Shown here: one piece after another, positions 2,515 through 28,316 of the stretch
Numbering within the stretch: the stretch's first letter is position 1
How the letters are laid out: every line of letters begins with the position of its first letter
Source: Nocardioides sp.
GTDB taxonomy: Bacteria > Actinomycetota > Actinomycetes > Propionibacteriales > Nocardioidaceae
Direction of reading: 5' to 3'
Assembly (NCBI GenBank): GCA_041581495.1
Contig: JBFIDC010000001.1
Coordinates: 1 to 38,941 of the forward strand
DNA: 38,941 bases
The notes under the pieces: model-generated
What the model was told of the DNA's origin: nothing
Database searches by the model: none
Seen by the model: only the letters and a program-made list of their open reading frames with translations
Program-made: the position numbers and the translations under genes

Positions 2515-2559
2515 TGTCTCAAAGCGACACAGCCTCAAGGGGGTTCTCATTCCTAGGTT
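2515..2559 (+). promoter_or_regulatory. Activator box TGTCTCA-AAG-CGACACA (2515-2531), 22 nt, -10 TAGGTT (2554-2559)
   Basis: Read directly, upstream of the ABC operon. Extra half-site CGTCTCA at 2500-2506. Confidence 0.7.
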
Positions 2560-7692: not shown

Positions 7693-8451
7693 ATGGGCAA
7701 ACTCACCGCACGCATGGCCGTGATCACCGGCGCCGCCTCGGGTATCGGACTGGCCTCCGCCCGACGCTTCGCTGCCGAGGGCGCCACGGTGGTGCTCTGG
7801 GACCGCGACGCCGAATCGCTCGCGCTCGCGGTGAAGACTGTGGAGGCCGACGGCGGCTCGGCGTTCGGCGTCGAAGCGGACGTCTCTGATCTGGCGTCGG
7901 TCCAGGCCGCGGCCGGGCGCACGCTTGACCTGGTCGGCAACGTGACGGTGCTGATGAACAACGCGGGCGTGCTCGATGACTACGCCCCGATCCTGGAGAC
8001 CGACGAGGACCTCTGGGGCAGGATCATCGGCATCAATCTGACCGGTGTCTATCGGGTGACCAAGGCCCTGCTGCCCTCGATGCTCGAGGCGGGAGGCGGC
8101 ACCATCGTCAACACCTGCTCTATCGCGGGCCTGGTCGCCGGTGGTGGCGGCACTGCCTACACCGCCTCCAAACACGGCGTCCTGGGCCTGACTCGCCAAC
8201 TCGCCTTCGACTACGGCCAGCAGGGCATCCGGGTCAACTGCATCTGCCCGGGCGCCGTCGAGACCGGGATGACCAAGGCCCTCTTTGAAGCCGGCGACGC
8301 CGACGTCATGGACTCGGTCAACAGCGTCCCCGCGGGCCGCTTCGCCCAACCCGACGAACTCGCCAACCTCGCCCTCTTCCTTGCCAGCGAGGACTCCTCC
8401 TTCTCCCACGGCGCACACTTTGTCGCCGACGGAGGCTGGACGATCCGCTAG
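7693..8451 (+). CDS. SDR oxidoreductase (secondary alcohol/ketone dehydrogenase-like)
   Basis: TGAASGIG, NNAG and YTASK motifs; GAAGGA RBS. Confidence 0.9.
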   Translation: MGKLTARMAVITGAASGIGLASARRFAAEGATVVLWDRDAESLALAVKTVEADGGSAFGVEADVSDLASVQAAAGRTLDLVGNVTVLMNNAGVLDDYAPILETDEDLWGRIIGINLTGVYRVTKALLPSMLEAGGGTIVNTCSIAGLVAGGGGTAYTASKHGVLGLTRQLAFDYGQQGIRVNCICPGAVETGMTKALFEAGDADVMDSVNSVPAGRFAQPDELANLALFLASEDSSFSHGAHFVADGGWTIR

Positions 8452-8457
8452 ACCCGC

Positions 8458-8526
8458 GTGGTCGAGACGCCTGCGGACTTGTCAGCAAGCCTCAAGCGCA
8501 GGCACATCACGATAGATCTCGACCAC
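8458..8526. repeat. Nested inverted repeat at the convergent SDR / DUF222 junction
   Basis: GTGGTCGAGA (8458-8467) pairs with TCTCGACCAC (8517-8526); inner pairs are GCCTGCG/CGCAGGC and CTTG/CAAG. Confidence 0.5.
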
Positions 8527-9792
8527 CAGTGGCCTCGGCAACTCACTTGTCGGTGCGCCGATTGGGACGCGCCGGGTGCCGGTGTGGTCGACCAGGTAGT
8601 AGCCGTCGTGGGCATCGCGCCAGACATAGATGCCCGGAAAGGGTTGCCTGACGTCCATCGGACCGTGGGTCTTGATCCGGTGGTGCCGGGTGCTCATCGG
8701 CCCGTAGTTGCCCACCCCGCTGACACCGCCCTGCTCATGGGGAACGGTGTGGTCGACCTGCATGGTGCGAGACAGGCTCGAGGAGAAGGGGTAGGTGTCG
8801 GCCGGCGTCATCAGACGCACGGCCTGTCTATGTCGATCGGGGATCTCATAGGCATCGACCGGCGCCTGACCCTCGAGATCGAGGACCGGGGTGATCTTGA
8901 ACTTCGCCTGCGGCCCCAGCACGCTGCGCACCCACGCCTCGGTCACCGGACCGTGGCCCTCGAGGCGCATCACTTCGTGGGTGCCAGCGTAGGTGTGGAC
9001 GTAGAGGTGCACGGGCGGCAGCAGGTCGTGGATCGGGGTGTCGTCGGGCTTGCCGGGGTTGCCCAGCAGGAGCAGCGCGGCATGGACCCGGCGGGCGTCT
9101 TGATCCAGGTCGGGCAGCACGTCGCGCAGGTGGCGCTCCTTGGCATCGACAGCCGCGGCGATCTGGTCGATGGTCGCGACGTCGGCGCGGATGAGGTAGC
9201 TGGCCATCCCGTTGGCCTCCTCGCGGCACTTCTTGGCGAACCTCGCCTGAGCGGCCTGCTCCTCCCTGGCGCGAGCGGCAGCGGGCGCGGCTTGGGCGAC
9301 CTTGGCCTCCACCAGTGCCTCGAACCGCGACCATGGGATCCGACCATCGGCCGACTCGGCCACGGCCGCATCGACGAACATCGCCTCGTCCTTGGACAGG
9401 TTGCGGGTCTTGGCGACGACGTGGCGGGCGTAGGAGAGTCGGACCTCGCCGGCCTCGATCCGGCCCCGAAGGCTGGGGTGGCGGTGGTGCAGGTCCAGCG
9501 CGTCGGCCATCAGCGCCGCGGCGGCGTATACCGATCGCCCGATCCGCGCCCCCAACTCCGCGGCGGCGAACTCGGTCACCTCGGGCGTGCCCTCGCCGCC
9601 ATACATCCGCGACTTCTCACGCCCCGGCTTGCCCACCTCATCGGCACGAAGCCGCGCCGGGTGGTGGATCACCGCCCACTGGTAGGCGATCCGCAGCAGG
9701 TCGTTCTCGCGTTCGCGGATCTCTTCAGCGCGCTGACCGGCGAGGGCGAGGAGGTCACCCTCGCCCATCTCTGCCAGCGCCGTGGTGGTCAT
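8482..9792 (-). CDS. DUF222 / 13E12-repeat-family protein with C-terminal HNH-like domain
   Basis: GGEGTPEVTEFAAAELGA..DALDLHHRHP N-terminal signature and VDHTVP..GNYGPM..HHRIKTHG HNH-like segment. Confidence 0.85.
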   Translation of the reverse strand: MTTTALAEMGEGDLLALAGQRAEEIRERENDLLRIAYQWAVIHHPARLRADEVGKPGREKSRMYGGEGTPEVTEFAAAELGARIGRSVYAAAALMADALDLHHRHPSLRGRIEAGEVRLSYARHVVAKTRNLSKDEAMFVDAAVAESADGRIPWSRFEALVEAKVAQAAPAAARAREEQAAQARFAKKCREEANGMASYLIRADVATIDQIAAAVDAKERHLRDVLPDLDQDARRVHAALLLLGNPGKPDDTPIHDLLPPVHLYVHTYAGTHEVMRLEGHGPVTEAWVRSVLGPQAKFKITPVLDLEGQAPVDAYEIPDRHRQAVRLMTPADTYPFSSSLSRTMQVDHTVPHEQGGVSGVGNYGPMSTRHHRIKTHGPMDVRQPFPGIYVWRDAHDGYYLVDHTGTRRVPIGAPTSELPRPLVVEIYRDVPALEAC

Positions 9793-9798
9793 GAATCA

Positions 9799-9821
9799 AG
9801 CCAACACGAGCCCACCGACAA
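9799..9821 (-). promoter_or_regulatory. RecA-NDp / PafBC-like promoter of the DUF222 gene
   Basis: Minus strand reads TTGTCGGTGGGCTCGTG-TTGGCT-TGATTC-ATG. This matches TGTCGG-N10-TANNNT with one mismatch, and the ATG is 6 nt downstream. Confidence 0.6.
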
Positions 9822-9854
9822 GACGGTCCCAGGTCGGGGGTTCTGTCTCAGCAT

Positions 9855-9870
9855 TCGAACACTTGATCGA
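9855..9870. promoter_or_regulatory. LexA (SOS) box-like site
   Basis: TCGAAC-ACTT-GATCGA, one mismatch to the actinobacterial consensus TCGAAC-N4-GTTCGA. Confidence 0.6.
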
Positions 9871-9938
9871 AAATAGTCCTGATGGGACTTGGCCCTGACG
9901 TAGTCGGAGCTGTCGTGGGGGTGGGGGAACGGCGTGGT

Positions 9939-10304
9939 TCAATCCAGTGGAGCGTCAACCCAGCCGACCAACCGGCTACCAATTCCCAGGGGCTCTTCTC
10001 GATGGTGACCGGGCAGCGGAGGCGGTAGGTCGGAGTGCTGGTGGGAGTCGCAACTGACGTAAGTGAACGTCGGCCACCATTTCTTCGGCCGGGCTTTCTC
10101 AGCGAACCCGCAGACGTTGCACACCAGTTCGACCCAAACTAGCTTCTTGCCGATGCGGTTGGCGCGGGACTGAACCAGCCAGGGCGGCGGGCTGTTCTCG
10201 ATCTCATCCAACTGGGCTTCGGTGAGCTTCGTAGGCAGGCCGTGCCGGCTGGCCATCTCCACGGGGATGTTCAAGCGTTGGGCAGCCTCGCGTCGGGTGA
10301 ACAT
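9939..10304 (-). CDS. Hypothetical protein, HTH-like N-terminus plus CxxC...CxxH putative Zn site
   Basis: MFTRREAAQRLNIP.. start, CNVC and CDSH. The ATG at 10304 is preferred over the TTG at 10313. Confidence 0.65.
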   Translation of the reverse strand: MFTRREAAQRLNIPVEMASRHGLPTKLTEAQLDEIENSPPPWLVQSRANRIGKKLVWVELVCNVCGFAEKARPKKWWPTFTYVSCDSHQHSDLPPPLPGHHREEPLGIGSRLVGWVDAPLD

Positions 10305-10632
10305 CGCGCTCAACGATAGTCAGTGCGGGCTAGAGGACATCCTTCTGAGTTGCCACCCGTACACAGGTCTGGGGACCGCGGCTGACGAACGAATGCAGAG
10401 TTCGACCTCGTGCAAAGGCGCTGCACCCGTCGCGGGAATGCGACGCACACGCGGTGGAATGGGCGCCTGGTGCGTCGACGGACGTACCGAACGCCGCGTC
10501 CCGGCCTCATCGCAGGCGGGCGGTCGGAGCGAGGAGCGTCGATAGGTACGTCGGTCGGCGCCCATGCCGCCCCACTGAGTCAATCTGGCCGGAAGGACGC
10601 GGACCCGCCCCAGTACCTCCAGCAGGCGAAGC

Positions 10633-11888: not shown

Positions 11889-11990
11889 ACCGTGCTCCCG
11901 CCGAGGGGGCAAACGCCGTCCCACTTTGCGACAGGGCCGGGACACTGTCGCAAACTCGCACACTCCCGACGACTCGGCCGGGCATTGACT
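11889..11990. promoter_or_regulatory. Back-to-back activator-box promoters for the lactonase (-) and the Zn-ADH operon (+)
   Basis: Minus strand: TGTCGCA-AAG-TGGGACG (11933-11917), 22 nt, CACGGT (11894-11889). Plus strand: TGTCGCA-AAC-TCGCACA (11946-11962), 22 nt, TTGACT (11985-11990), with the ATG 6 nt later. Confidence 0.75.
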
Positions 11991-11996
11991 AGCGAT

Positions 11997-13097
11997 ATGA
12001 GCACAGGCCACAGCACCGCGGGTCAGATCGCCACGCTCGTGGGGCCCGCAACAGCCGAACTTCAGGAGTACGACGTGCCCGCCCCCGGCGCCGGTGCCGT
12101 GGTGCTCAAGATCCGCCGGGCCAATGTCTGCGGCACGGACGTCCACCAGTGGCACTACGAGTCAGCGGCGCTGCGCGACTCGGGTCTCGGCCACGAATTC
12201 GTCGGCGAGATCCTGGCCCTGGGCGACGGCGTCACCACCGACTTCGCCGGTCAACCAGTCTCGGTCGGCGATCGCGTGGTGCCGGTCTACTTCCTGACCT
12301 GTCATCGCTGCCCACCCTGCCTACGCGGGGAGTTCAACCTGTGCCAGAACGGGCTGGCCGAGTGGAAGATCAAGCCCGAGGTCTCCCCACACTTCCGCTC
12401 CGGCTTCGCCACGCACTACTACCTCTTCCCCGGCCAGTACTTCTACAAAGTGCCAGACGAGGTCGACGACGAGACCGTCGCCGGCGCCAACTGCGGTCTG
12501 GCCCAGATGCTCTTCGTCATCGACCAGGTCGGCATCGAGCCGGGCGAAACCCTGGTCATCCAAGGCGCCGGTGGCCTCGGTTTGTACGCCGCAGCGGTCG
12601 CTCACGAACGCGGCGCCCGAGTGATCGCGATCGACGGGGTCCCCGAACGCCTCGCGCTCGCCGAGGAGTTCGGTGCTTCCGAGACGATCAGCCTGGCCGA
12701 CTATCCCGAGTCGGCGGACCGGGTCGCGCGGGTCCAAGAACTCACCGGCGGGCTCGGCGCCGACATGGTGCTCGAGGTGACCGGTGTCCCGGCGAGCTTC
12801 GTTGAGGCCATCGACATCGCCCGCACCGGCGGTCGGATCGCATCGGTTGGCAACCTCAACGCCGAGGCAGAGGTGACCATGATTCCCGGCATCTTGACGC
12901 GCAAGAGCGTCCACGTGCACGGCGTCCTGCGCTACCACCCGCCCTACCTACACAAGGCCATCGCCTTCCTTGCTCGGCGGCAGCACGCCCACCCGTTCCA
13001 CGCCTTCGCCGACCGGTCCTACCCGCTAGTTGAGGTGACCGCGGCGCTCAAAGCGGGTGAGAGTCGATCGGTCGCCCGTGTCGCCATCGTTCCCTGA
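11997..13097 (+). CDS. Zinc-dependent medium-chain alcohol dehydrogenase
   Basis: VCGTDVH, GHE, CHRCPPC..C and QGAGGLG motifs. The true start is the ATG at 11997, not 11088. Confidence 0.9.
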   Translation: MSTGHSTAGQIATLVGPATAELQEYDVPAPGAGAVVLKIRRANVCGTDVHQWHYESAALRDSGLGHEFVGEILALGDGVTTDFAGQPVSVGDRVVPVYFLTCHRCPPCLRGEFNLCQNGLAEWKIKPEVSPHFRSGFATHYYLFPGQYFYKVPDEVDDETVAGANCGLAQMLFVIDQVGIEPGETLVIQGAGGLGLYAAAVAHERGARVIAIDGVPERLALAEEFGASETISLADYPESADRVARVQELTGGLGADMVLEVTGVPASFVEAIDIARTGGRIASVGNLNAEAEVTMIPGILTRKSVHVHGVLRYHPPYLHKAIAFLARRQHAHPFHAFADRSYPLVEVTAALKAGESRSVARVAIVP

Positions 13098-19794: not shown

Positions 19795-20874
19795 CTAGGC
19801 GGACTCGACCGTGAGGATCGCGGCGGTGATGTCGTCCTCGGTCACGGGCGTTCCCAGGTTGGCGAGGTGGGGGGCGGTCATGGTGACGCGGGCGATCTCT
19901 CGGATCTCGGCGGGGGAGGGGCCGCTCATCCCGAGTTCGGTCAGAGTCACTGGGAGTCCGACGTCGCGCAAGAACCCGCGCAGTTCCTCGATCTCTGCGG
20001 CGGGTGCCCGCTCGGCCACGCGCTGCACCAGGGTTGCCCAGGCGACGTGCTCGCCATGCATTGCGGTCTTCGCGCCGCGGGCTCGCATCAGGCCACGGGT
20101 GAGCGAATGGGCGAGCGACAACCCACCGTTCTCAAAGCCCATGCCGCTGAGGAGTACGACGGCCTCGACCAACGCTTCCAGATCGTCGGTCACCTCGTTG
20201 CGGTCGCACGCGGCAAGCCCCGCAAGCGCGTGCGCACGCAGCGCCGTGTAGCAGGCGTCAGCAATCGCGACTCCGATCAGAAGCGGACGCGTGCCCAGGG
20301 TCGTCACGCCTGTGCCGGCCGCACATCCGGCCGCTTCGTAGGTCTTGGCAATGGCGTCGCCGATGCCGGCCCGCAAGAAGTGCGCGGGAGCCGTTGCGAT
20401 CAACTCGGTATCGACCACGACCGCGTGCGGGTTCGCGACCAGTTGATCGACGGAGGCCATCTGGTGCTGGTCGTCATACATTGCGACGGCCTTGCTGGTC
20501 GGGCTGTCATTGGAGGCAACCGTTGGAACTGTCACCACGGGGACTCCGAGCCGCAACGAGACCGCCTTGCCAGCGTCCAGTGCCTTGCCGCCGCCGATCC
20601 CCACGACGACTCCGACTCCGACGCTGCGCACCGACGCGGCTATCTCGTCAGCGGCAGCAGCAGTGATCTCACCGGTCAGGGTTCGGACCTCTGGCACCAG
20701 ACCCGAAGCGCAGAGGATTTCCTCGACGCGGGCGCCCAGGATCTCGCGAACGAAGGGATCGATCACAACCACGGGCCGAGTTCCATAACCTTGCACGAGA
20801 TCGCCAAGCAACTCGAGGGCCCCGGGACCTTGGACGTATCGGAGCGGGCCGGCGAAAACCCGCGTGTGGCTCAT
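19795..20874 (-). CDS. gldA: Glycerol/1,2-diol dehydrogenase family
   Basis: P.RYVQG, GIGGGKALDAGK, PTVASND, AGIGDA, GGLSLAH and HGE motifs. Start at 20874. The substrate is not established. Confidence 0.8.
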   Translation of the reverse strand: MSHTRVFAGPLRYVQGPGALELLGDLVQGYGTRPVVVIDPFVREILGARVEEILCASGLVPEVRTLTGEITAAAADEIAASVRSVGVGVVVGIGGGKALDAGKAVSLRLGVPVVTVPTVASNDSPTSKAVAMYDDQHQMASVDQLVANPHAVVVDTELIATAPAHFLRAGIGDAIAKTYEAAGCAAGTGVTTLGTRPLLIGVAIADACYTALRAHALAGLAACDRNEVTDDLEALVEAVVLLSGMGFENGGLSLAHSLTRGLMRARGAKTAMHGEHVAWATLVQRVAERAPAAEIEELRGFLRDVGLPVTLTELGMSGPSPAEIREIARVTMTAPHLANLGTPVTEDDITAAILTVESA

Positions 20875-20875
20875 G

Positions 20876-21862
20876 TCAGGTGCCGTCGACGATCGCGCGA
20901 AGCACCCGGGGTAGATCAACCCCGTACTTCGCCTCGAGGTACTCCTGCGAGCCGCACTCGAAGAACCCGTCCTCGAGCCCGACGCGAATCACGGGGCGCA
21001 GCACAGCCGCGTCAAACATCGCTTCGGTGACCAGTGTCGCGAGCCCACCGGTGGTCTTGTGGTTCTCGGCCACGACCAACCGGTCGTGTCGGCCTGCGAA
21101 GTCGAGCACGGCGTCCGTATCGAACGGCTTGATCGTGGGGACGTGCAGCACGCTCGCCTCGACACCCTGGTCGGCAGCGGCCTTGGCCGCATCGAGCGCC
21201 CGGCCCGTCATGTAGCCGGTGGCGATCACGCCGACCGACCCGTCACCCTGGCGCAGCCGGGCCGCCTTGCCGGGGATGAATTCGTACTCGGGCGGCAACT
21301 CAACGGGCACATGCCCACGCAGCAGTCGGACATAGACCGTCCCGGGGATATCGGCCACCGCACGCACGACTTGCCGAAGTTCGTGGGCGTCACAGGGATC
21401 GATGATCGTCAGATCGGCGATGCCCCGCATCATGTTGATGTCCTCAGTGGCCTGGTGCGTGGCTCCGTACCCGTTCAGCAGGCCGGGCATTCCGGCGAAG
21501 ATCTTCACGTTCGCCATCGAGTGCGCACAGGCGATGGCGACGAAGTCGTAGGCCCGTCGCGTCACGAACACCGAGTACGTCGTGCAGTAGGCGATCTTGC
21601 CGACCTTGGCCAGCCCCGCCGCGGCAGCGATCAGGTTCTGCTCGGCCATGCCGACGTTGAAGAACCGATCCGGATGCTCGTCGCGGAACGGAAGGATGTC
21701 GCTGTAGCGGCCCATGTCAGCCGTCAGCGCGACGATCTCCGAACGCTCGCGACCCATCGCCGCCAGTTCATTGCCGAAGGGCGCGAGCACCGTTTCTTTG
21801 TCGGCGATCTCGATGAGCTCACCCATGCCGCGGGTCTGGCCAAAGATGGCGGTCTCGCTCAT
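20876..21862 (-). CDS. Split transketolase, C-terminal (pyrimidine-binding) subunit
   Basis: NVGMAEQN, GATHQATED, YVRL and ENH..TGGL motifs. Start at 21862 overlaps the upstream stop. Confidence 0.88.
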   Translation of the reverse strand: MSETAIFGQTRGMGELIEIADKETVLAPFGNELAAMGRERSEIVALTADMGRYSDILPFRDEHPDRFFNVGMAEQNLIAAAAGLAKVGKIAYCTTYSVFVTRRAYDFVAIACAHSMANVKIFAGMPGLLNGYGATHQATEDINMMRGIADLTIIDPCDAHELRQVVRAVADIPGTVYVRLLRGHVPVELPPEYEFIPGKAARLRQGDGSVGVIATGYMTGRALDAAKAAADQGVEASVLHVPTIKPFDTDAVLDFAGRHDRLVVAENHKTTGGLATLVTEAMFDAAVLRPVIRVGLEDGFFECGSQEYLEAKYGVDLPRVLRAIVDGT

Positions 21863-22698
21863 CGGTTGCTCTCCAGTTCTTCCATGAAGTCGCCCCATTC
21901 GTCGTCGCTGACGCGCACGAAGTGCGCGCGCGGCCGGGCCATGATCGTGGGCACCCCGAAGCCCGGGGTGGTCCGTAGCACGATGGCCTTCGGGCGGCCG
22001 TCCTGTTCGCGAGATGCAGCCAGTGCGTCGGTGAGTTGTTGCATGTCGTTGCCATTGACCTCGCGGGTATCCCAACCGAAGGCGCGCAGCTTGTCGGCGA
22101 CCGGCTCGATGGCCACGGTGACCGGGCCGTCGGCTTGGATGCCGTTGCAGTCGACCAGGGCGACGAGGTTGTCGACGCCGAAGGTTGCACCGCTCATCAA
22201 GGCCTCCCAGGTTGAGCCCTCGTCGAGTTCCCCATCGGAGAACTCACAGAAGACCCGGGCTGGGGATCCGTCGAGCCGGAGCCCGAGCGCCATGCCGACG
22301 GCTTGACCGAGGCCTTGACCGAGTGAACCGCCCACGATGTCGATGCCGGGCGTGATATCGAAGGTGCTCATTGGCAGCCGCGAGCCGTTGAGCCCGTAGG
22401 TGGGCAGTTCGTCCTCGTCGAGGTACCCGCTGGCCGCGAGCACCGCGTACATGGCGATCGAGTAGTGGCCGGTGGAGAGCAGGAAGCGGTCTCGAGCCGC
22501 CCACGCCGGGTTCGCTGGATCGTGGCGCAGTTCGTGGAAGTAGAGGGCCGCCAACGTGTCGGCGATGCCCAGGCCTTGGGCGAGGTAGCCCTCACCCTTC
22601 CCGCGCGTCATCTCCATCATCAGCCGACGGAGTTGGTGCGCATGGTCCTTCAAGTCGGCTACGTCTGCGGTTTCTGGTGGGGCAAGAGTGGCGGGCAT
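21859..22698 (-). CDS. Split transketolase, N-terminal ThDP-binding subunit
   Basis: RDRFLLSTGH, GSLGQGL and SDGELDEGSTWEA...DCN motifs. Start at 22698. Confidence 0.88.
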   Translation of the reverse strand: MPATLAPPETADVADLKDHAHQLRRLMMEMTRGKGEGYLAQGLGIADTLAALYFHELRHDPANPAWAARDRFLLSTGHYSIAMYAVLAASGYLDEDELPTYGLNGSRLPMSTFDITPGIDIVGGSLGQGLGQAVGMALGLRLDGSPARVFCEFSDGELDEGSTWEALMSGATFGVDNLVALVDCNGIQADGPVTVAIEPVADKLRAFGWDTREVNGNDMQQLTDALAASREQDGRPKAIVLRTTPGFGVPTIMARPRAHFVRVSDDEWGDFMEELESNR

Positions 22699-22704
22699 GC
22701 TGCC

Positions 22705-22749
22705 AGCCTCACGTGCACAGGGCCGATGTCGTTGTCCCAACTTGCGACA
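22705..22749 (-). promoter_or_regulatory. Activator box TGTCGCA-AGT-TGGGACA (22749-22733), 22 nt, -10 GAGGCT (22710-22705)
   Basis: Read directly. The ATG at 22698 is 6 nt downstream with no room for an RBS. Confidence 0.75.
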
Positions 22750-22765: not shown

Positions 22766-24583
22766 CTAGAAGTACTGCTTGTCGGGGTCGATTCGATACG
22801 CCTGGAGCTTTCGATAGAGCGTTGAGCGCGAGATGCCGATGGATTGCGCTGCCGCAACCTTGTTGCCGTGATGCTGCTTAAGGGCAGTCAGGATTGCCCC
22901 GAGCTCGAGCTCTTCCATGGCCGAGAGGGTTCGTTTGCGTGAGTTGCCTTGGAGTTCGACTGGCAAGGCGTCCGGGCCGATCTCGGGACCGATGCAGGCC
23001 GAGAGCACTCCCCGGATCGTGGTGTCGAGTTGTCGCAGGTTGCCGGGCCATGGTGCGCGCATCAGGCAGCGCAGAGTTGCTGACGCGAAGTGGAGTTGAC
23101 GCTCGCCGCGGTGCTTCTCGAGCATCGCGGCAGCGGTCGGTGCGATGTCCTCGTGCCGGTCGCGCAGAGGCGGGAGGCTCACTCGGCCGACGCCGATGGT
23201 GTCGACGAGGCGTCGGAGCGAATGGCTGGGCTCGCCACCACCGGTCGTGAGAGTGGCCACGATGCGGGGGAGCCGCGGGTCGTCTTCGTCGTCAGGTTCC
23301 AGCAAGCTGGCGGTAGCCGCCGCGGCCTCGGGTGTCAGTTGCTCGATGTGCCTCAGGAGTACGGCCTCGGGACCGGACTCGAGAGCCGCCCGAAGCTTGT
23401 TGACGAAGTGAGTCGCCTCCTCCGCCCATCCTGTTGCTGACGCGTCCAGGATCAGCGTGTCCGCTTCGGGAACAGCCGCAGCAGCAAGCACCGCCTTGGC
23501 CAGGGCGAACTTCCCGACTCCAGACTCGCCTTCGACGATCATCGGGACCCCCCTTGCGGCGAGGCGGGTCGCATGCGCGATTGCCGTCACCAGGGCGGGA
23601 CTCTGACCGGGCAAGATCACCGTGGGGTGCGGCAAGGTCGCATCGGGCGCTCCGACCTGGTCATGCGTTGGTCGCCCGATCTCGAACTCCACCACCGCTC
23701 CGATGACGGTCCCGTCACGTTCGACCGGGTGGCAGTGGGCGATCCGGAAGCGGCCACCCGTGGGAAGGCCGGATTGCGCCCCGTCCCCCCGAGAACCCAT
23801 CGCAACACTGCGGACGTACTCCCACAACATGGCCCGGTCGATGCCTTCGAGCAGGTCGGTGACCTTGGGTCCGGCGATGAAGATGTCTTGACCGACGGCA
23901 GCCATGGGTGCGCGACGCGAGCCAATCGCAACGAGGTAGGCGTCGAGAAGTTGGCGTTCGCTGGTCGTGGCCTGGGCTAGCAGTCGACTCTCGACCTCTT
24001 GGGCCGTGCTGGTCATCAACGGCGTCAGGAGTGCGTTGCCGGATGTCGCCCGGCACGAGAGCGTGATGACGCCTTCGAGCCTGCGAGTCACCGGATGATG
24101 GACCGGCACGCCAACACAGGTGAAAGGCCTCAGGGCCTCGGCAAGGTGCTCGGGGCCGCTGACCTGGATGGCTGCGTTCGTCTCGATCACGCTGCCGCAG
24201 CCGTTGGTGCCGATGGATTCCTCGCTGTTGTCGAAGCCCATGTTGGCGTTGATCCGGTCAAACATTGGTGCGATCGAGCGATCCGGGGTCCACCGATGCA
24301 CCAAGGTCGCCTCGTGATCGGCAAGGAGAACACCTGCCTCCAGCCCGGCCAACTGCTCTGCCAGCCGAGACAGCACGGGGTCGGCGGCGAGTCGAAGCGC
24401 CGCACGCGCGTGGTGCTCGCCACGGAACGTCAGTGTCGGGTTGGCGAGTTGGGCGCCGCTGCGAAGCGACCGCCGCCAGGACTGCAGCACCTGTGGCCGG
24501 ACCTGCTTCTCCAGATGGCGGGGGATCACGCCGTCGGCGAGCAGGTGCTCGCGTGCGGCGTCGACCAGCTTTAACTCGCCCAC
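22766..24583 (-). CDS. GAF-AAA(degenerate)-Fis HTH transcriptional activator (AcoR-like), paralog 2
   Basis: SWRRS, E.SIGTNG, GESGVGK, PPLRDR, WPGNLRQL and GISRSTLYRKL motifs. GTG at 24583 follows GGAGG; the ORF-track start at 24904 overlaps the upstream gene. Confidence 0.9.
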   Translation of the reverse strand: MGELKLVDAAREHLLADGVIPRHLEKQVRPQVLQSWRRSLRSGAQLANPTLTFRGEHHARAALRLAADPVLSRLAEQLAGLEAGVLLADHEATLVHRWTPDRSIAPMFDRINANMGFDNSEESIGTNGCGSVIETNAAIQVSGPEHLAEALRPFTCVGVPVHHPVTRRLEGVITLSCRATSGNALLTPLMTSTAQEVESRLLAQATTSERQLLDAYLVAIGSRRAPMAAVGQDIFIAGPKVTDLLEGIDRAMLWEYVRSVAMGSRGDGAQSGLPTGGRFRIAHCHPVERDGTVIGAVVEFEIGRPTHDQVGAPDATLPHPTVILPGQSPALVTAIAHATRLAARGVPMIVEGESGVGKFALAKAVLAAAAVPEADTLILDASATGWAEEATHFVNKLRAALESGPEAVLLRHIEQLTPEAAAATASLLEPDDEDDPRLPRIVATLTTGGGEPSHSLRRLVDTIGVGRVSLPPLRDRHEDIAPTAAAMLEKHRGERQLHFASATLRCLMRAPWPGNLRQLDTTIRGVLSACIGPEIGPDALPVELQGNSRKRTLSAMEELELGAILTALKQHHGNKVAAAQSIGISRSTLYRKLQAYRIDPDKQYF

Positions 24584-24600
24584 TGGGACTGGCCTCCGAC

Positions 24601-26400
24601 TCAGAAGTACTGCTTGTCGGGGTCCAGACGGTAGGCCTGGAGTTTGCGATAGAGAGTCGAGCGCGAGATTCCGATTGATTGGGCAGCCGCCACCTTGTTG
24701 CCGTTGTGCTGTCGCAGCGCGGTGAGAATTGCCCCGAGTTCCAACTCCTCCATCGCCGAGAGGTCGCGTTTGCGGGAGTTGCCCTGGAGTTCTAGGGGCA
24801 GGGCGTCGGGACGGATCTCCGGACCGATGGCCGTGGGCAGCAGTCCTCGAACCGTGGCGTCCATCTGTCGCACGTTGCCCGGCCAGGGTGCGCGCATCAA
24901 ACAACGAAGCGTTGCCGAAGCAAAGTAGAGCTCCCGGTCACCGCGGTGCTTCTCTAGCAGCGCAATAGCCGTGGGTGCGATGTCTTCTTGTCGATCGCGC
25001 AGCGGCGGCAGCGTGATCCGGCCGACTCCGATCGTGTCAATCAGGCGGCGCAGTCCGGGGGCATCGGGCCCGCCGGTGGTCATCGTTGCCACGATCCGTG
25101 GTGTGTTGGGCAGCTCTTCGATGCCGTCGAGCATGGCGGAGGTGGCGGCCGCAGCCTCGGGCGAAAGCGCCTCGAGGTGGCGCAACACCAGCGCATCGGG
25201 CTCGAGTTCGAACTCGCGGCGCAGCAGGCTGACGAACTGGTTGGCCCCTTCGGCCCAACCGGCGGCGGCATCCACGACGGCGATCTTGTCGGCCTTGACC
25301 TGAGCCGATGCGAGCACCGCCCGCGCCAGTGCGAACTTGCCCACGCCGGACTCGCCTTCGATGAGCATCGGCACCCCCTTGGCGGCCAGCCGGGTCGCGT
25401 GGGTGAGGGCGTTGGCTAGCGCAGGGCTCTTGCCGGGCAGTGACACGGTGGCTTTGGGCAGGGTGGCGGTGCGCGGTTCCTCGCGCACTTGACGATCGAC
25501 ATCGAACTCAATGAGGGCGCCGATGACGCGGCCCTCCCGGTCGACCGGCTTGCAGCCGACGATCCGGAACCGGTCTGTGTTGAGCCCGATCTCACCCGGC
25601 GTCGTCGCGGAGCCGAGCGCCACGCCGCGGACGTACTCCCAAAGCATGGCGCGGTCGATGCCTTCGAGGAGGTCGGTCACCTTGGGGCCGGCGATGAAGA
25701 TGTCTTGGCCCACGGCTGCCACCGGAGCCCGGCGCGAGCCGATTGCCACGAGGTACTCATCGAGGAGTTGTCGCTCGTTGGTCGAGGCTTGGGCCAGCAG
25801 CCGACTCTCGACCTCTTGGGCAGTGCTTGTCATCAACGGGGTGAGCAGCGGGTTGCTGGAGGTGGCCTGACAATTCATTGTGATGACGCCTTCGAGCCGT
25901 CGCGTGATGGGGTGGTGCACGGGCACGCCGACGCAGGTGAAGGGCCGCAGAGCCTCGGCCAGGTGCTCGGGCCCTGAGATTTGGATTGCCGCCCCAGACT
26001 CGATCACGGACCCGACGCCGTTGGTCCCGATCGTTTCCTCGCTGATGCAAAAGCCCACATTGGAATTGATGCGGTCCATCAACGGGAGGATGCCCGAATC
26101 TGATACCCATCGTCGGACGACTATGGACTCGTGATCGCAGAGCAGCACGCCGGCATCCAAACCAGCCAGCCCTTCGGCTAGGCGCGAAAGGACAGGGTCC
26201 GCGGCCAGCCTGAGTGCCGCGCGAGCGTGGTGCTCGCCGCTGAAGGTCAGCGCGGGGTTTGCCAACTCAGCCCCAGACGAGACCGACCGTCGCCACGACT
26301 CCAGAACGTCGGGGCGCATGTCCTTTGCCAAGTGGGCTGGAACATCGCCGCCACTGAGCAGGTGCTCGCGGGCTTGGTCAACGACGTGCAATGCCGTCAT
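24601..26400 (-). CDS. GAF-AAA(degenerate)-Fis HTH transcriptional activator (AcoR-like), paralog 1
   Basis: Same motif set and colinear with the neighbouring gene; GGAGG RBS. Confidence 0.9.
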   Translation of the reverse strand: MTALHVVDQAREHLLSGGDVPAHLAKDMRPDVLESWRRSVSSGAELANPALTFSGEHHARAALRLAADPVLSRLAEGLAGLDAGVLLCDHESIVVRRWVSDSGILPLMDRINSNVGFCISEETIGTNGVGSVIESGAAIQISGPEHLAEALRPFTCVGVPVHHPITRRLEGVITMNCQATSSNPLLTPLMTSTAQEVESRLLAQASTNERQLLDEYLVAIGSRRAPVAAVGQDIFIAGPKVTDLLEGIDRAMLWEYVRGVALGSATTPGEIGLNTDRFRIVGCKPVDREGRVIGALIEFDVDRQVREEPRTATLPKATVSLPGKSPALANALTHATRLAAKGVPMLIEGESGVGKFALARAVLASAQVKADKIAVVDAAAGWAEGANQFVSLLRREFELEPDALVLRHLEALSPEAAAATSAMLDGIEELPNTPRIVATMTTGGPDAPGLRRLIDTIGVGRITLPPLRDRQEDIAPTAIALLEKHRGDRELYFASATLRCLMRAPWPGNVRQMDATVRGLLPTAIGPEIRPDALPLELQGNSRKRDLSAMEELELGAILTALRQHNGNKVAAAQSIGISRSTLYRKLQAYRLDPDKQYF

Positions 26401-26458
26401 GGTCTACCTCCGGTTCCCCCCGAGGAGTCACAGTTCAGGGTCCTGTGACGCGTGTTAC

Positions 26459-26505
26459 ACAGTAGCCCCTGCCTTAGAGGCACCTCACTGTGCCGATTTG
26501 GGACA
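26459..26505 (-). promoter_or_regulatory. Activator box TGTCCCA-AAT-CGGCACA (26505-26489), 24 nt, -10 TACTGT; probable autoregulatory site
   Basis: Read directly. The spacing differs by 2 nt from the other seven sites. Confidence 0.55.
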
Positions 26506-26584
26506 CATCGCCTGCGGTCCGCGCCGCCCGGGGCGGACCTCTGCCGTTGCGAGGCTGACGGTGTCTCACGCGCCGTCGCACGCT

Positions 26585-26629
26585 CGTCCCGAAATGGGAC
26601 AACTTATTGCGCCGGCTTCTCACCACGAT
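26585..26629 (+). promoter_or_regulatory. Activator box CGTCCCG-AAA-TGGGACA (26585-26601), 22 nt, -10 CACGAT (26624-26629)
   Basis: Read directly, upstream of the BVMO gene. Extra half-site TGTCTCA at 26562-26568. Confidence 0.75.
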
Positions 26630-26675: not shown

Positions 26676-28316
26676 ATGAGCGACGAGGTCAAGGCGGAGG
26701 GGGGGACCACGGAGGTCGACGCCATCGTCATCGGCTCGGGGTTCGCCGGGCTCTACAGCATTCACAAGCTGAGGAACGTTGACGGTCTCACCGTCCAGGC
26801 GTTTGAGAACGCTGGCGATGTGGGAGGCACTTGGTACTGGAACCAGTACCCGGGTGCCCGATCAGACACCGAGGTCAACGCCTACTGCTACTCCTTCGAC
26901 AAGGAGCTCTTCCACGAGTGGAAGTGGTCCGAGCGGTACCCGCGTCAGGAAGAGATCTGGTCCTATCTCAAGCACGTGGCGGACCGCTACGACCTGCGAC
27001 GAAGCATTCAGTTCGATACCCAGGTCGAGACAGCCACCTGGGACGAAGCGGCGAGTCAGTGGATCGTCACCACCGATGATGGCAAGGCTTGGCGTGCCAA
27101 GTTCCTCATCGAGGCAGTCGGGTTGCTGTCTGCTACCAAGGTCCCGCACTTTGCAGGCGAGGACCGGTTCAAGGGTCAGATACACCACACCGCCCGCTGG
27201 CCTCAGGGGGATGTCGACCTGAGCGGCAAGCGGGTTGGCGTGATCGGGACCGGCTCCAGCGGCATCCAGGTGATCAGCGAGTTGGCCGACAAGGTCGGTC
27301 ACATGACCGTATTCCAACGCACCCCGCAGTGGGTCGTGCCATCCAAGCACCGACCAATCGCCCCGGGCTTGCTGGAGAAGATCGAGGCTGACTACGAGGG
27401 ATATTGGCGCGACGTTCTCTACTCGGTCACCGCTTTCGGCTTCGAAGAAAGCGACATCGCCGCCGAGGACGTCTCGTATGAGGAGCGCATCAAGCGGTTC
27501 GAGGAGCAGTACGAGGACGGCGGCGGGTTCCAATACATGTTCGCGGCGTTCAACGACGTCGCGGTTAGTCGGGTTGCCAACGCCGCCGCCACCGAGGTGA
27601 TTGCGGGCAAGATCCGCGAGACTGTCAAGGATCCGGTGACCGCCAACCTGTTGATCCCCAGCGATCTCTACGCTAAACGCCCGTTGTGCTGCGACGGCTA
27701 CTACGAGACCTTCAACCGCGACAACGTCGAGCTTGTCGATGTCCAGCACGACCCCATCGTGGAGTTCACCGAGAACGGGATCCGCACTGAAGACGGCGTG
27801 GAGCACGAACTCGACGTTGTCATTTTGGCGACGGGCTTCGACGCGGTCTCGGGCAACCAGCTCAAGATCCAACATCGCGGTCGTGGGGGTGTTTCCCTGC
27901 ACGATCACTGGGCGCACCGCCCTCGTACGCACCTCGGGTTGATGGCGCACGGGTTCCCCAACCTCTACATGATCTACGGCCCCATGGGTCCATTCACCAA
28001 TCAGCCGCCGCTGCACGAGGCTCAGGTGAACTGGGTCGCCGGCACCATCCAGCACGTCCTGAACAACGACCTGGCCTCGATCGAGGCCACCGCGGATGCC
28101 GAGGAGGCGTGGATCGCCGAGAGTGACGAGGGTGCGTCTGGCACCTTGTTCGCGGTGACCAACTCGTGGATCAACGGGTCGAACATCCCTGGAAAGCCCA
28201 TCATCAACATGTTCTACATGGGTGGGTCTGGGGCATACATGGACAAGATGGCGCACGAGGTGGAGACCGACTATCGGGAGAACTTCACCCTCGGCCACGC
28301 GCCTGTACCCGCGTGA
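26676..28316 (+). CDS. Type I Baeyer-Villiger monooxygenase (cyclohexanone monooxygenase-like)
   Basis: GSGFAG, GGTWYWNQYPGARSD, fingerprint FKGQIHHTARWP, GTGSSG, AKRPL and ATGFD motifs. ATG at 26676 follows AAGGGAG. Confidence 0.93.
   Translation: MSDEVKAEGGTTEVDAIVIGSGFAGLYSIHKLRNVDGLTVQAFENAGDVGGTWYWNQYPGARSDTEVNAYCYSFDKELFHEWKWSERYPRQEEIWSYLKHVADRYDLRRSIQFDTQVETATWDEAASQWIVTTDDGKAWRAKFLIEAVGLLSATKVPHFAGEDRFKGQIHHTARWPQGDVDLSGKRVGVIGTGSSGIQVISELADKVGHMTVFQRTPQWVVPSKHRPIAPGLLEKIEADYEGYWRDVLYSVTAFGFEESDIAAEDVSYEERIKRFEEQYEDGGGFQYMFAAFNDVAVSRVANAAATEVIAGKIRETVKDPVTANLLIPSDLYAKRPLCCDGYYETFNRDNVELVDVQHDPIVEFTENGIRTEDGVEHELDVVILATGFDAVSGNQLKIQHRGRGGVSLHDHWAHRPRTHLGLMAHGFPNLYMIYGPMGPFTNQPPLHEAQVNWVAGTIQHVLNNDLASIEATADAEEAWIAESDEGASGTLFAVTNSWINGSNIPGKPIINMFYMGGSGAYMDKMAHEVETDYRENFTLGHAPVPA

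What the first reader, a model, noticed from the sequence alone, without database searches (positions are those of the whole stretch)
22766..26400. Tandem paralogous sigma54-activator-derived regulators with identical HTH, no GAFTGA and a degenerate Walker B
Seen: two adjacent, colinear proteins of about 600 aa share GNKVAAAQSIGISRSTLYRKLQAY exactly but diverge in the GAF and linker regions. Walker A (GESGVGK) and WPGN.RQ are kept, the GAFTGA loop is absent, and Walker B reads LRHIEQL/LRHLEAL instead of LDE. Established: GAFTGA is the sigma54 contact, and most actinobacteria lack sigma54. Inference: these are enhancer-binding-protein descendants repurposed as promoter-proximal activators. They act either as an OR gate (two effectors, one operator) or as an obligate hetero-oligomer as in HrpR/HrpS.
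Basis: partly seen in the sequence, partly recalled or inferred. Interest (0 to 1): 0.75.

Follow-up and report, generated by a model that had tools for sequence, protein, structure and literature searches.

The report
Twin sensors sharing one promoter switch
Two neighbouring copies of a gene regulator, kept side by side in several actinobacteria, have lost the parts their family uses to drive sigma-54 transcription and carry their fixed differences almost only in the sensing domain, so they likely switch on the same breakdown genes from a site next to ordinary promoters in response to two different chemicals.

Summary
The observation mostly holds. regA (26400-24601) and regB (24583-22766) are 72% identical, lack GAFTGA, have Walker B DE replaced by RH and have lost the arginine fingers; no rpoN was found in the genome (92% complete). 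These losses and the shared helix-turn-helix are family-wide (Pfam MimR_N regulators), not peculiar to the pair. New here: (1) the pair is old and conserved, in 9 of 11 close loci, as two clades; (2) 9 of 10 fixed A/B differences lie in the GAF domain, and they survive gene-wide homogenisation in one locus; (3) a 17-bp palindrome occurs seven times in this catabolic cluster, and 27 of 28 orthologous sites lie exactly 22 nt before a -10-like hexamer, centring it near -43, the class II sigma-70 position; (4) relatives carry the same cluster with only A or only B, which argues against an obligate HrpR/HrpS-type hetero-oligomer. Best reading: ATPase-dead, promoter-proximal activators with two ligand specificities on one operator (OR-like). 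Ligands, expression and binding are untested. The scan had no earlier look-alike on other DNA.

The parts
24601..26400 (-). regA, 599 aa: N-terminal helices + GAF (about 61-205), PAS-like region (about 206-301, inferred), degenerate AAA+ (321-540), Fis-type HTH (550-590); A-type GAF
22766..24583 (-). regB, 605 aa, same architecture, B-type GAF; GTG start 17 nt after the regA stop
22733..22749 (-). 17-bp palindromic operator of the transketolase operon, just after the regB stop
22705..22710 (-). -10-like hexamer GAGGCT, 22 nt after the operator and 6 nt before the ATG at 22698 (leaderless start inferred)
19795..22698 (-). predicted target operon: split transketolase (N and C parts) and glycerol-dehydrogenase-like enzyme
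26585..26601 (+). operator of the monooxygenase promoter; identical in 11 of 12 loci, one base changed in the twelfth
26562..26580 (+). two extra half-sites 23 and 11 nt upstream of the monooxygenase operator, one helical turn apart
   Evidence: half-site at 11 nt in 11 of 14 rows, at 22-24 nt in 10 of 14
26624..26629 (+). -10-like hexamer CACGAT of the monooxygenase promoter, 22 nt after the operator
26676..28316 (+). Baeyer-Villiger monooxygenase of the cyclohexanone monooxygenase type, divergent from regA; first gene of a run with acyl-CoA dehydrogenase, phosphotransferase-like protein, two SDRs and a thiolase
26489..26505 (-). operator in front of regA (autoregulation inferred); 24 nt before the hexamer TACTGT
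26444..26459 (.). CRP-like palindrome TGTGA-N6-TTACA over the inferred regA start site, 27-29 nt from the operator in all 14 rows listed (CRP consensus recalled)
   Evidence: a CRP-type HTH is in the genome
678..694 (+). operator before the SDR gene (TACCGT at +22, ATG at 730); not used to train the matrix
2515..2531 (+). operator before the ABC transporter operon (TAGGTT at +22, ATG 2607); not used to train the matrix
11917..11933 (-). operator before the metallo-beta-lactamase-fold lactonase-like gene (CACGGT at +22); not used to train the matrix
11946..11962 (+). weaker operator before the Zn-alcohol dehydrogenase/ALDH/CoA-ligase run; ATG at 11997 is 34 nt downstream as for the transketolase, but the hexamer (TTGACT) does not fit nAnnnT

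Best explanation
RegA and RegB are MimR-family regulators that lack GAFTGA, the Walker B acids and the arginine fingers, and they likely bind one shared 17-bp palindrome centred near -43 and likely recruit housekeeping sigma-70-type RNA polymerase without ATP hydrolysis, each predicted to be switched on by a different small molecule through its own GAF domain. The duplication is old, gave an A-type and a derived B-type GAF, and has been kept. Either protein alone would turn on the whole regulon (transporter, SDRs, monooxygenase, lactonase-like hydrolase, ADH/ALDH/CoA ligases, transketolase/GldA), so the pair would widen the range of inducers (OR-like). The inducers are probably ketones or hydroxy-ketones of the pathway, which looks like alicyclic alcohol/ketone catabolism (inferred from gene content). 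Mixed A/B dimers may form but are not required. Shown: motifs, clades, operator, spacing, single-copy relatives. Inferred: binding, activation, sigma factor, two ligands.
For: No rpoN domain in the own genome (92% complete) or in G221 and G282 (100% complete). Catalytic motifs lost. Seven operator sites in the cluster; the six best of 15 genome-wide sites scoring 12 or more are all in this window. 27 of 28 monooxygenase/transketolase operators have nAnnnT at offset 22, at most 3 of 28 at any other offset from 8 to 39; 3 of the 4 untrained sites obey it too. ATG 34 nt downstream in 9 of 10 transketolase rows fixes the centre near -43 if the mRNA is leaderless. A and B form separate clades over 10 loci (GAF tree 100, full length 98). 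9 of 10 strict diagnostic columns lie in the GAF; 11 of 16 under a looser rule, p 5e-4 given conserved columns. B-type GAFs stay in one branch (98) after the diagnostic columns are removed, while the non-GAF tree groups one A/B pair set by locus (99); in L100 the copies are 86% identical and differ at only 3 positions in residues 120-247, yet keep the A/B residues. Window pair dN/dS 0.21/1.29 overall, 0.054/1.22 in the HTH. A-only and B-only relatives keep cluster and operators. Precedent for a class II position: VpsR (PMC6158489) and a palindrome over the -35 box of Rhodococcus BCP1 prmA (PMC4428276).
Against: No ligand, binding or expression data. That the diagnostic residues line a pocket is inferred only; the closest solved GAF is DhaR's (Z 23), which is controlled by partner proteins, not a small ligand (PMC10084136). 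Single-copy relatives show that two inputs are dispensable and do not prove that the paired copies still work alone. The loci are kin, so counts are not independent. The start sites are inferred. The +22 rule held for only 3 of 22 palindromes near distant MimR-like genes and not at the regA promoter (23-24 nt) or the ADH hexamer. The cluster is rare (3 of 401 family genomes).
Confidence: 0.52

Rival explanations
1. Preferred but facultative hetero-oligomer, as in RedR1/RedR2: A and B assemble together, and full activation needs both GAF domains engaged, giving AND-like or graded integration, perhaps on the phased half-sites of the monooxygenase promoter.
For: Co-transcribed and 72% identical, so mixed dimers are plausible; ESMFold2 gave weak support for RegA(1-302) with a RegB homologue (1-303): score 0.48, best of 3 controls 0.00; the mark was reached by 51 of 78 solved complexes and 2 of 108 mismatched pairs, but at 0.60 or under by only 5 of 78 solved and by all 4 mismatches that passed; run agreement at least 77%, partner pLDDT at least 78. 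The like DhaR dimer is solved, so the pass may reflect likeness and cannot tell homo- from heterodimer. In RedR1/RedR2 an inactive partner inhibits the active one (PMC10084136).
Against: No complementary specialisation in the AAA, lid or HTH (1 of 10 diagnostic columns outside the GAF); both types occur alone with the same operators.
Confidence: 0.2
2. DhaR-like partner sensing or activator/antagonist pair: the fixed GAF differences form a surface for a pathway enzyme or set one copy constitutive or inhibitory, instead of changing a small-ligand pocket.
For: Top fold match is the DhaR N-terminal domain; DhaR and RedR2 are controlled by protein partners (PMC10084136).
Against: Several diagnostic residues lie on the GAF strands and next to the invariant GTNG motif (positions 88, 94, 113, 119, 176), which suggests the interior (inference); either type alone runs with the cluster.
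Confidence: 0.14
3. Redundant duplicate kept for dosage; the GAF differences are neutral leftovers of an early divergence.
For: Loss of either copy is tolerated in relatives; same HTH, same operator.
Against: Differences are fixed within each clade and concentrated in the most conserved domain (about 90% within clade, 77% between), and survive homogenisation in L100.
Confidence: 0.09
4. Obligate HrpR/HrpS-type hetero-hexamer, or any sigma-54-dependent mechanism.
For: AAA+ fold of the bEBP type is kept (Z 19-21); Walker A lysine invariant in 86 of 86; 3 of 201 phylum genomes do carry a Sigma54_CBD match.
Against: Neither copy has GAFTGA, Walker B acids or arginine fingers, so neither can complement the other; no rpoN found; -24/-12 pattern at chance level, 4 matches against 2.5 expected; single-copy loci exist.
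Confidence: 0.05

Closest known systems
MimR family (Pfam PF26965 MimR_N + AAA_lid_14 + HTH_8), e.g. the Fis-type regulator divergent from prmABCD/mimABCD in Rhodococcus and Mycobacterium
   Same: PF26965 is listed for all 120 homologues including regA (name); gene divergent from a monooxygenase; a conserved palindrome over the -35 region and CRP-like sites were reported for BCP1 prmA (PMC4428276, section 16 read).
   Different: Described members are single genes; here a conserved tandem pair with two GAF types and a seven-site regulon. Rhodococcus and Mycolicibacterium plasmid relatives are only 28-33% identical. M. smegmatis MimR itself was not compared; its acetone response is recalled, not read.
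Atypical sigma-70-dependent EBPs: E. coli DhaR and TyrR, Vibrio cholerae VpsR
   Same: No GAFTGA; DhaR has the GAF-PAS-AAA-HTH layout and the best structural match (Z 23.0, rmsd 1.9, 176 residues); VpsR also has a changed Walker B, no ATPase activity and a site just upstream of -35 (PMC6158489, passages).
   Different: DhaR senses partner proteins, VpsR c-di-GMP; both single-copy and proteobacterial; NCBIfam DhaR score 132 against cut-off 551.
RedR1/RedR2 of Aromatoleum anaerobium
   Same: Two paralogous GAF-PAS EBPs controlling the promoters of one catabolic pathway with different input mechanisms (PMC10084136, abstract and passages).
   Different: Those are sigma-54-dependent, ATPase-active and differ in 17 residues; these are sigma-54-less, 72% identical, with the fixed differences inside the GAF.
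HrpR/HrpS of Pseudomonas syringae
   Same: Paralogous bEBP-derived pair from a duplication.
   Different: HrpR/S lack an N-terminal domain and form active hetero-hexamers (PMC10084136, passage); here both have sensor domains, both lack the catalytic motifs, and each occurs alone in relatives.

Membership tests
canonical sigma-54 enhancer-binding protein | GAFTGA loop | tested here: not met
   remnant plus 11-residue deletion; 0 of 120 homologues have it
canonical sigma-54 enhancer-binding protein | Walker B acidic pair and arginine fingers | tested here: not met
   LDE aligns to LRH; the R-finger region aligns without the arginines
canonical sigma-54 enhancer-binding protein | bEBP-type AAA+ fold, Walker A and Fis HTH | tested here: met
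canonical sigma-54 enhancer-binding protein | rpoN in the genome and -24/-12 target promoters | tested here: not met
   (own genome 92% complete; G221 and G282 100%); 2 weak matches in 151 family genomes
MimR family (PF26965) | MimR_N + AAA_lid_14 + HTH_8 architecture | tested here: met
   precomputed Pfam, name; the local Pfam copy lacks PF26965
MimR family (PF26965) | ketone-induced activation of an adjacent monooxygenase operon | not testable with these tools
   adjacent divergent monooxygenase is present; induction needs experiments
atypical sigma-70-dependent EBP (DhaR/TyrR/VpsR type) | binding site abutting the -35 region of a sigma-70-type promoter | tested here: met
   (sequence geometry only; start sites inferred)
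atypical sigma-70-dependent EBP (DhaR/TyrR/VpsR type) | activation of sigma-70 holoenzyme without ATP hydrolysis | not testable with these tools
   needs in vitro transcription and ATPase assays
HrpR/HrpS obligate hetero-hexamer | both paralogues always needed and co-occurring | tested here: not met
   A-only L002 and B-only G221 keep cluster and operators
RedR1/RedR2-type preferred hetero-oligomer | hetero-interaction favoured over self-interaction | tested here: inconclusive
   weak support, cannot separate homo- from heterodimer

The most novel reading that the evidence does not exclude
A two-input logic device built from dead sigma-54 activators: A-type and B-type subunits mix on one operator (and on the helically phased half-sites of the monooxygenase promoter), so that AA, BB and AB species read two different pathway metabolites and tune a sigma-70 regulon combinatorially, with selection protecting about ten GAF residues from homogenisation between the copies.
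Probability: 0.2. Interest if true: 0.72.

Novelty: new variant of a known kind. Interest (0 to 1): 0.5.

Why it matters
Actinobacteria lack sigma-54 yet carry many regulators annotated 'sigma-54-dependent', and how these work is barely described. This locus gives a concrete, testable answer: an exact operator, a fixed 22-nt spacing to the -10 hexamer and seven promoters. It is also a clean natural experiment in sensor evolution: same DNA-binding end, about ten fixed GAF substitutions, natural A-only and B-only relatives. If the two pockets read different ketones, those residues map ligand specificity for the MimR/AcoR GAF family, which is of use for biosensors.

Tried and rejected
Recent gene conversion as the cause of the identical HTH in this window: rejected, synonymous sites there are diverged (dS about 1.2). 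Independent duplications in each genome: rejected for the 10 main loci, though partial homogenisation occurs in L100. 'GAF is the divergent region' by raw identity: rejected. Further paralogues in the own genome: none by tblastn. RNA evidence: no RNA holder listed, no evidence either way. Substrate of the pathway: not identified; the binding protein had no solved relative at E 1e-5. The single cNMP-domain match in the genome is a stand-alone 124-aa protein, not CRP; a CRP-type HTH was then found at a contig end. Generalising the +22 spacing to distant MimR-like loci failed (3 of 22). Pocket mapping of the diagnostic residues could not be done, as no coordinates are returned. Ten literature searches showed no paper on this pair or cluster; the original MimR work was not held (tried a related paper); subscription journals are not covered; no supplements were read, and Figure S5 of PMC4428276 may already show a related operator.
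Full report
Observation. Two minus-strand genes lie at the stated coordinates: regA 26400..24601 (599 aa) and regB 24583..22766 (605 aa, GTG start with GGAGG upstream), 17 nt apart and 72% identical. Pfam finds HTH_8 and AAA_lid_14 in both and a partial Sigma54_activat match in regA. Against NtrC1, Walker A is kept, the GAFTGA loop is reduced with an 11-residue deletion, the Walker B acids align to RH and the arginine-finger segment has no arginines. The AlphaFold2 model (pLDDT 80, pTM 0.44) matches the DhaR N-terminal domain best (Z 23.0, rmsd 1.9, residues 28-205) and bEBP AAA+ domains next (Z 19-21). The GAF call rests on this and on precomputed Pfam for homologues; the PAS-like label for 206-301 is inferred.

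What is ordinary. All 120 listed homologues (of 550 found) carry PF26965, which the Atlas names MimR_N (run on homologue P0016). None has GAFTG or an LDE-type Walker B, 115 have the RH-type motif, 117 share SRSTLYRK and 31 the exact 24-mer. So the degenerate motifs and the shared HTH are family traits. Sigma-54 domains were not found in the own genome (92% complete), nor in G221 and G282; 2 of 151 family genomes gave weak matches and 3 of 201 phylum genomes real ones. This agrees with PMC12316311 and PMC3162934 (passages read), which report near absence of rpoN in the phylum and list DhaR, TyrR, HupR and VpsR as GAFTGA-less, sigma-54-independent descendants.

Setting. regA is divergent from a cyclohexanone-monooxygenase-type enzyme; regB is followed by a split transketolase and a glycerol-dehydrogenase-like gene. 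The wider cluster has SDRs, an F420-type LLM enzyme, an ABC transporter, a lactonase-like MBL protein, Zn-ADH, ALDH, CoA ligases, thiolases and an acyl-CoA dehydrogenase. That fits alcohol to ketone to lactone to acid to beta-oxidation (inference); the substrate is unknown. The closest named relatives are Nocardioides, Blastococcus and uncultured Actinomycetota. The cluster is rare: 3 of 401 family genomes hold a close relative.

The pair is conserved. Of 79 loci from the genome scan, 11 were close (74-83%); 9 hold the tandem pair and 2 a single gene. The metagenome scan added one new pair (L100), near-copies of known loci and truncated loci. Over the window and the 9 paired loci, A and B form separate groups (GAF tree 100, full-length 98; the AAA+lid tree misplaces one B) with mirrored subgroups; L007 was left out of the trees because it is frameshifted. 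Within-clade GAF identity is 89-90%, between clades 77%; 9 of 10 strictly diagnostic columns fall in the 145 GAF residues (77, 88, 94, 100, 103, 108, 113, 119, 176), one in the AAA core, none in the HTH. Under a looser rule it is 11 of 16, p 5e-4 given the conserved columns; the loci are kin, so this overstates. Both window genes are under purifying selection (dN 0.21, dS 1.29; HTH dN 0.054, dS 1.22). In a 45-row set, the 18 B-type GAFs lie in one branch (98, with one unclassed row) even without the diagnostic columns, nested among A-types, whereas the non-GAF tree groups the A and B copies P0020/P0021/P0031/P0033 together (99). L100 encodes P0021 and P0031: 86% identical, only 3 differences in residues 120-247, patchy third-position identity (59-90%), and the A/B residues kept. 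Homogenisation that spares the diagnostic sites is the best sign that two GAF types are selected.

The operator. Aligning intergenic regions showed a 17-bp palindrome, consensus TGTCCCA-N3-TGGGACA, before the monooxygenase, the transketolase and regA. A matrix trained on these three promoters finds seven sites in the window; four were untrained (678, 2515, 11917, 11946), each before a cluster operon, and the six best of 15 genome-wide sites are in the window. In 27 of 28 monooxygenase and transketolase sites an nAnnnT hexamer starts exactly 22 nt downstream although the spacer sequence varies; no other offset exceeds 3. Three of the four untrained sites follow the rule. The transketolase ATG lies 6 nt after the hexamer, as in leaderless actinobacterial mRNAs (established knowledge), which puts the operator at -51 to -35, centre -43, the class II activator position. 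Where other DNA is inserted after regB (L004, L196) the operator stays with the transketolase. The -24/-12 pattern is at chance level. The monooxygenase operator has extra half-sites 11 and 22-24 nt upstream (11 and 10 of 14 rows; not so at the transketolase promoter), which hints at cooperative binding on one face. At regA the spacing is 23-24 nt (hexamer seen by eye in 10 of 14 rows) and a CRP-like palindrome covers the inferred start. Against generality: similar palindromes lie near distant MimR-like genes, but only 3 of 22 show the +22 hexamer. PMC4428276 (passages and section 16) reports a palindrome over the -35 box and CRP-like sites at the Rhodococcus BCP1 prmA promoter next to such a regulator, and PMC6158489 (passages) describes VpsR as an ATPase-less class II activator; the geometry therefore has precedent.

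OR gate or hetero-oligomer. L002 (and its near-copies L098, L099) has only an A-type gene; G221 (100% complete) only a B-type gene; L007 one frameshifted B-like gene; each genome search found no second close copy, and the operators are retained. Neither paralogue supplies a catalytic motif that the other lacks. An obligate HrpR/HrpS arrangement is therefore unlikely. A complex prediction of the N-terminal halves gave weak support (0.48 against best control 0.00; regB represented by P0044, two residues different); with a solved DhaR dimer as a model it cannot tell homo- from heterodimer. RedR1/RedR2 (PMC10084136, abstract and passages) shows that such twins can prefer mixed oligomers while each can act alone, and that GAF-PAS domains can sense proteins, so those rivals stay open.

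Other papers seen: PMC8784404 and PMC8394569 (passages; AcoR-like and mimR regulators beside actinobacterial monooxygenases, mostly uncharacterised), PMC13677872 (passages, nothing relevant). The acetone response of MimR and the CRP and sigma-54 consensus motifs are recalled. Ten searches showed no description of this pair. The scan's own index had no look-alike sequence; a word search gave two different systems.

Verdict. Sigma-54-independent, promoter-proximal activation is about 0.9 likely; two ligand specificities acting OR-like about 0.52 overall. New variant of a known kind; interest 0.5.

Noticed in passing
window 8482-10313 (-): A DUF222 gene and a DUF5997-like gene sit between the SDR at 7693-8451 and the Zn-ribbon gene; in G221 (L195) the Zn-ribbon and SDR genes are adjacent, so this looks like an insertion into the cluster.
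   Followed up: partly
window 26444-26459: Conserved CRP-like palindrome over the inferred regA start site, suggesting catabolite control of the regulator operon; binding untested.
   Followed up: partly
regA residues 349-355, 407-410, 506-512: Walker A lysine is invariant in 86 of 86 aligned homologues and the replaced Walker B (R407, H408, E410) is itself conserved at 90% or more, so the dead ATPase site is still under selection, perhaps for nucleotide binding or an interface.
   Followed up: no
L081, L083, L086, L177-L179, L125, L127: Distant single-copy MimR-like genes (30-36% identity) have a related palindrome TGTCTCA-N3-TGAGACA nearby, which may be the family-wide operator.
   Followed up: partly
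L199:5010-6671 and 6445 onward: The AcoR-like regulator before hmoCAB of Mycolicibacterium chubuense NBB4 is a 29% relative and lies between mdo and the copper monooxygenase genes; its motifs were not aligned.
   Followed up: no
L007: Many frameshifts across the whole locus, probably assembly errors, so its single regulator cannot be judged intact.
   Followed up: no
L095 (G059): Weak Sigma54_DBD match (E 2.6e-4) in a 444-aa frame in a same-family genome; not examined.
   Followed up: no
L108, L110, L112, L114, L120: Rearranged versions of the same catabolic cluster with a single, more distant regulator (42-53%) and the same operator before the LLM and permease genes.
   Followed up: partly
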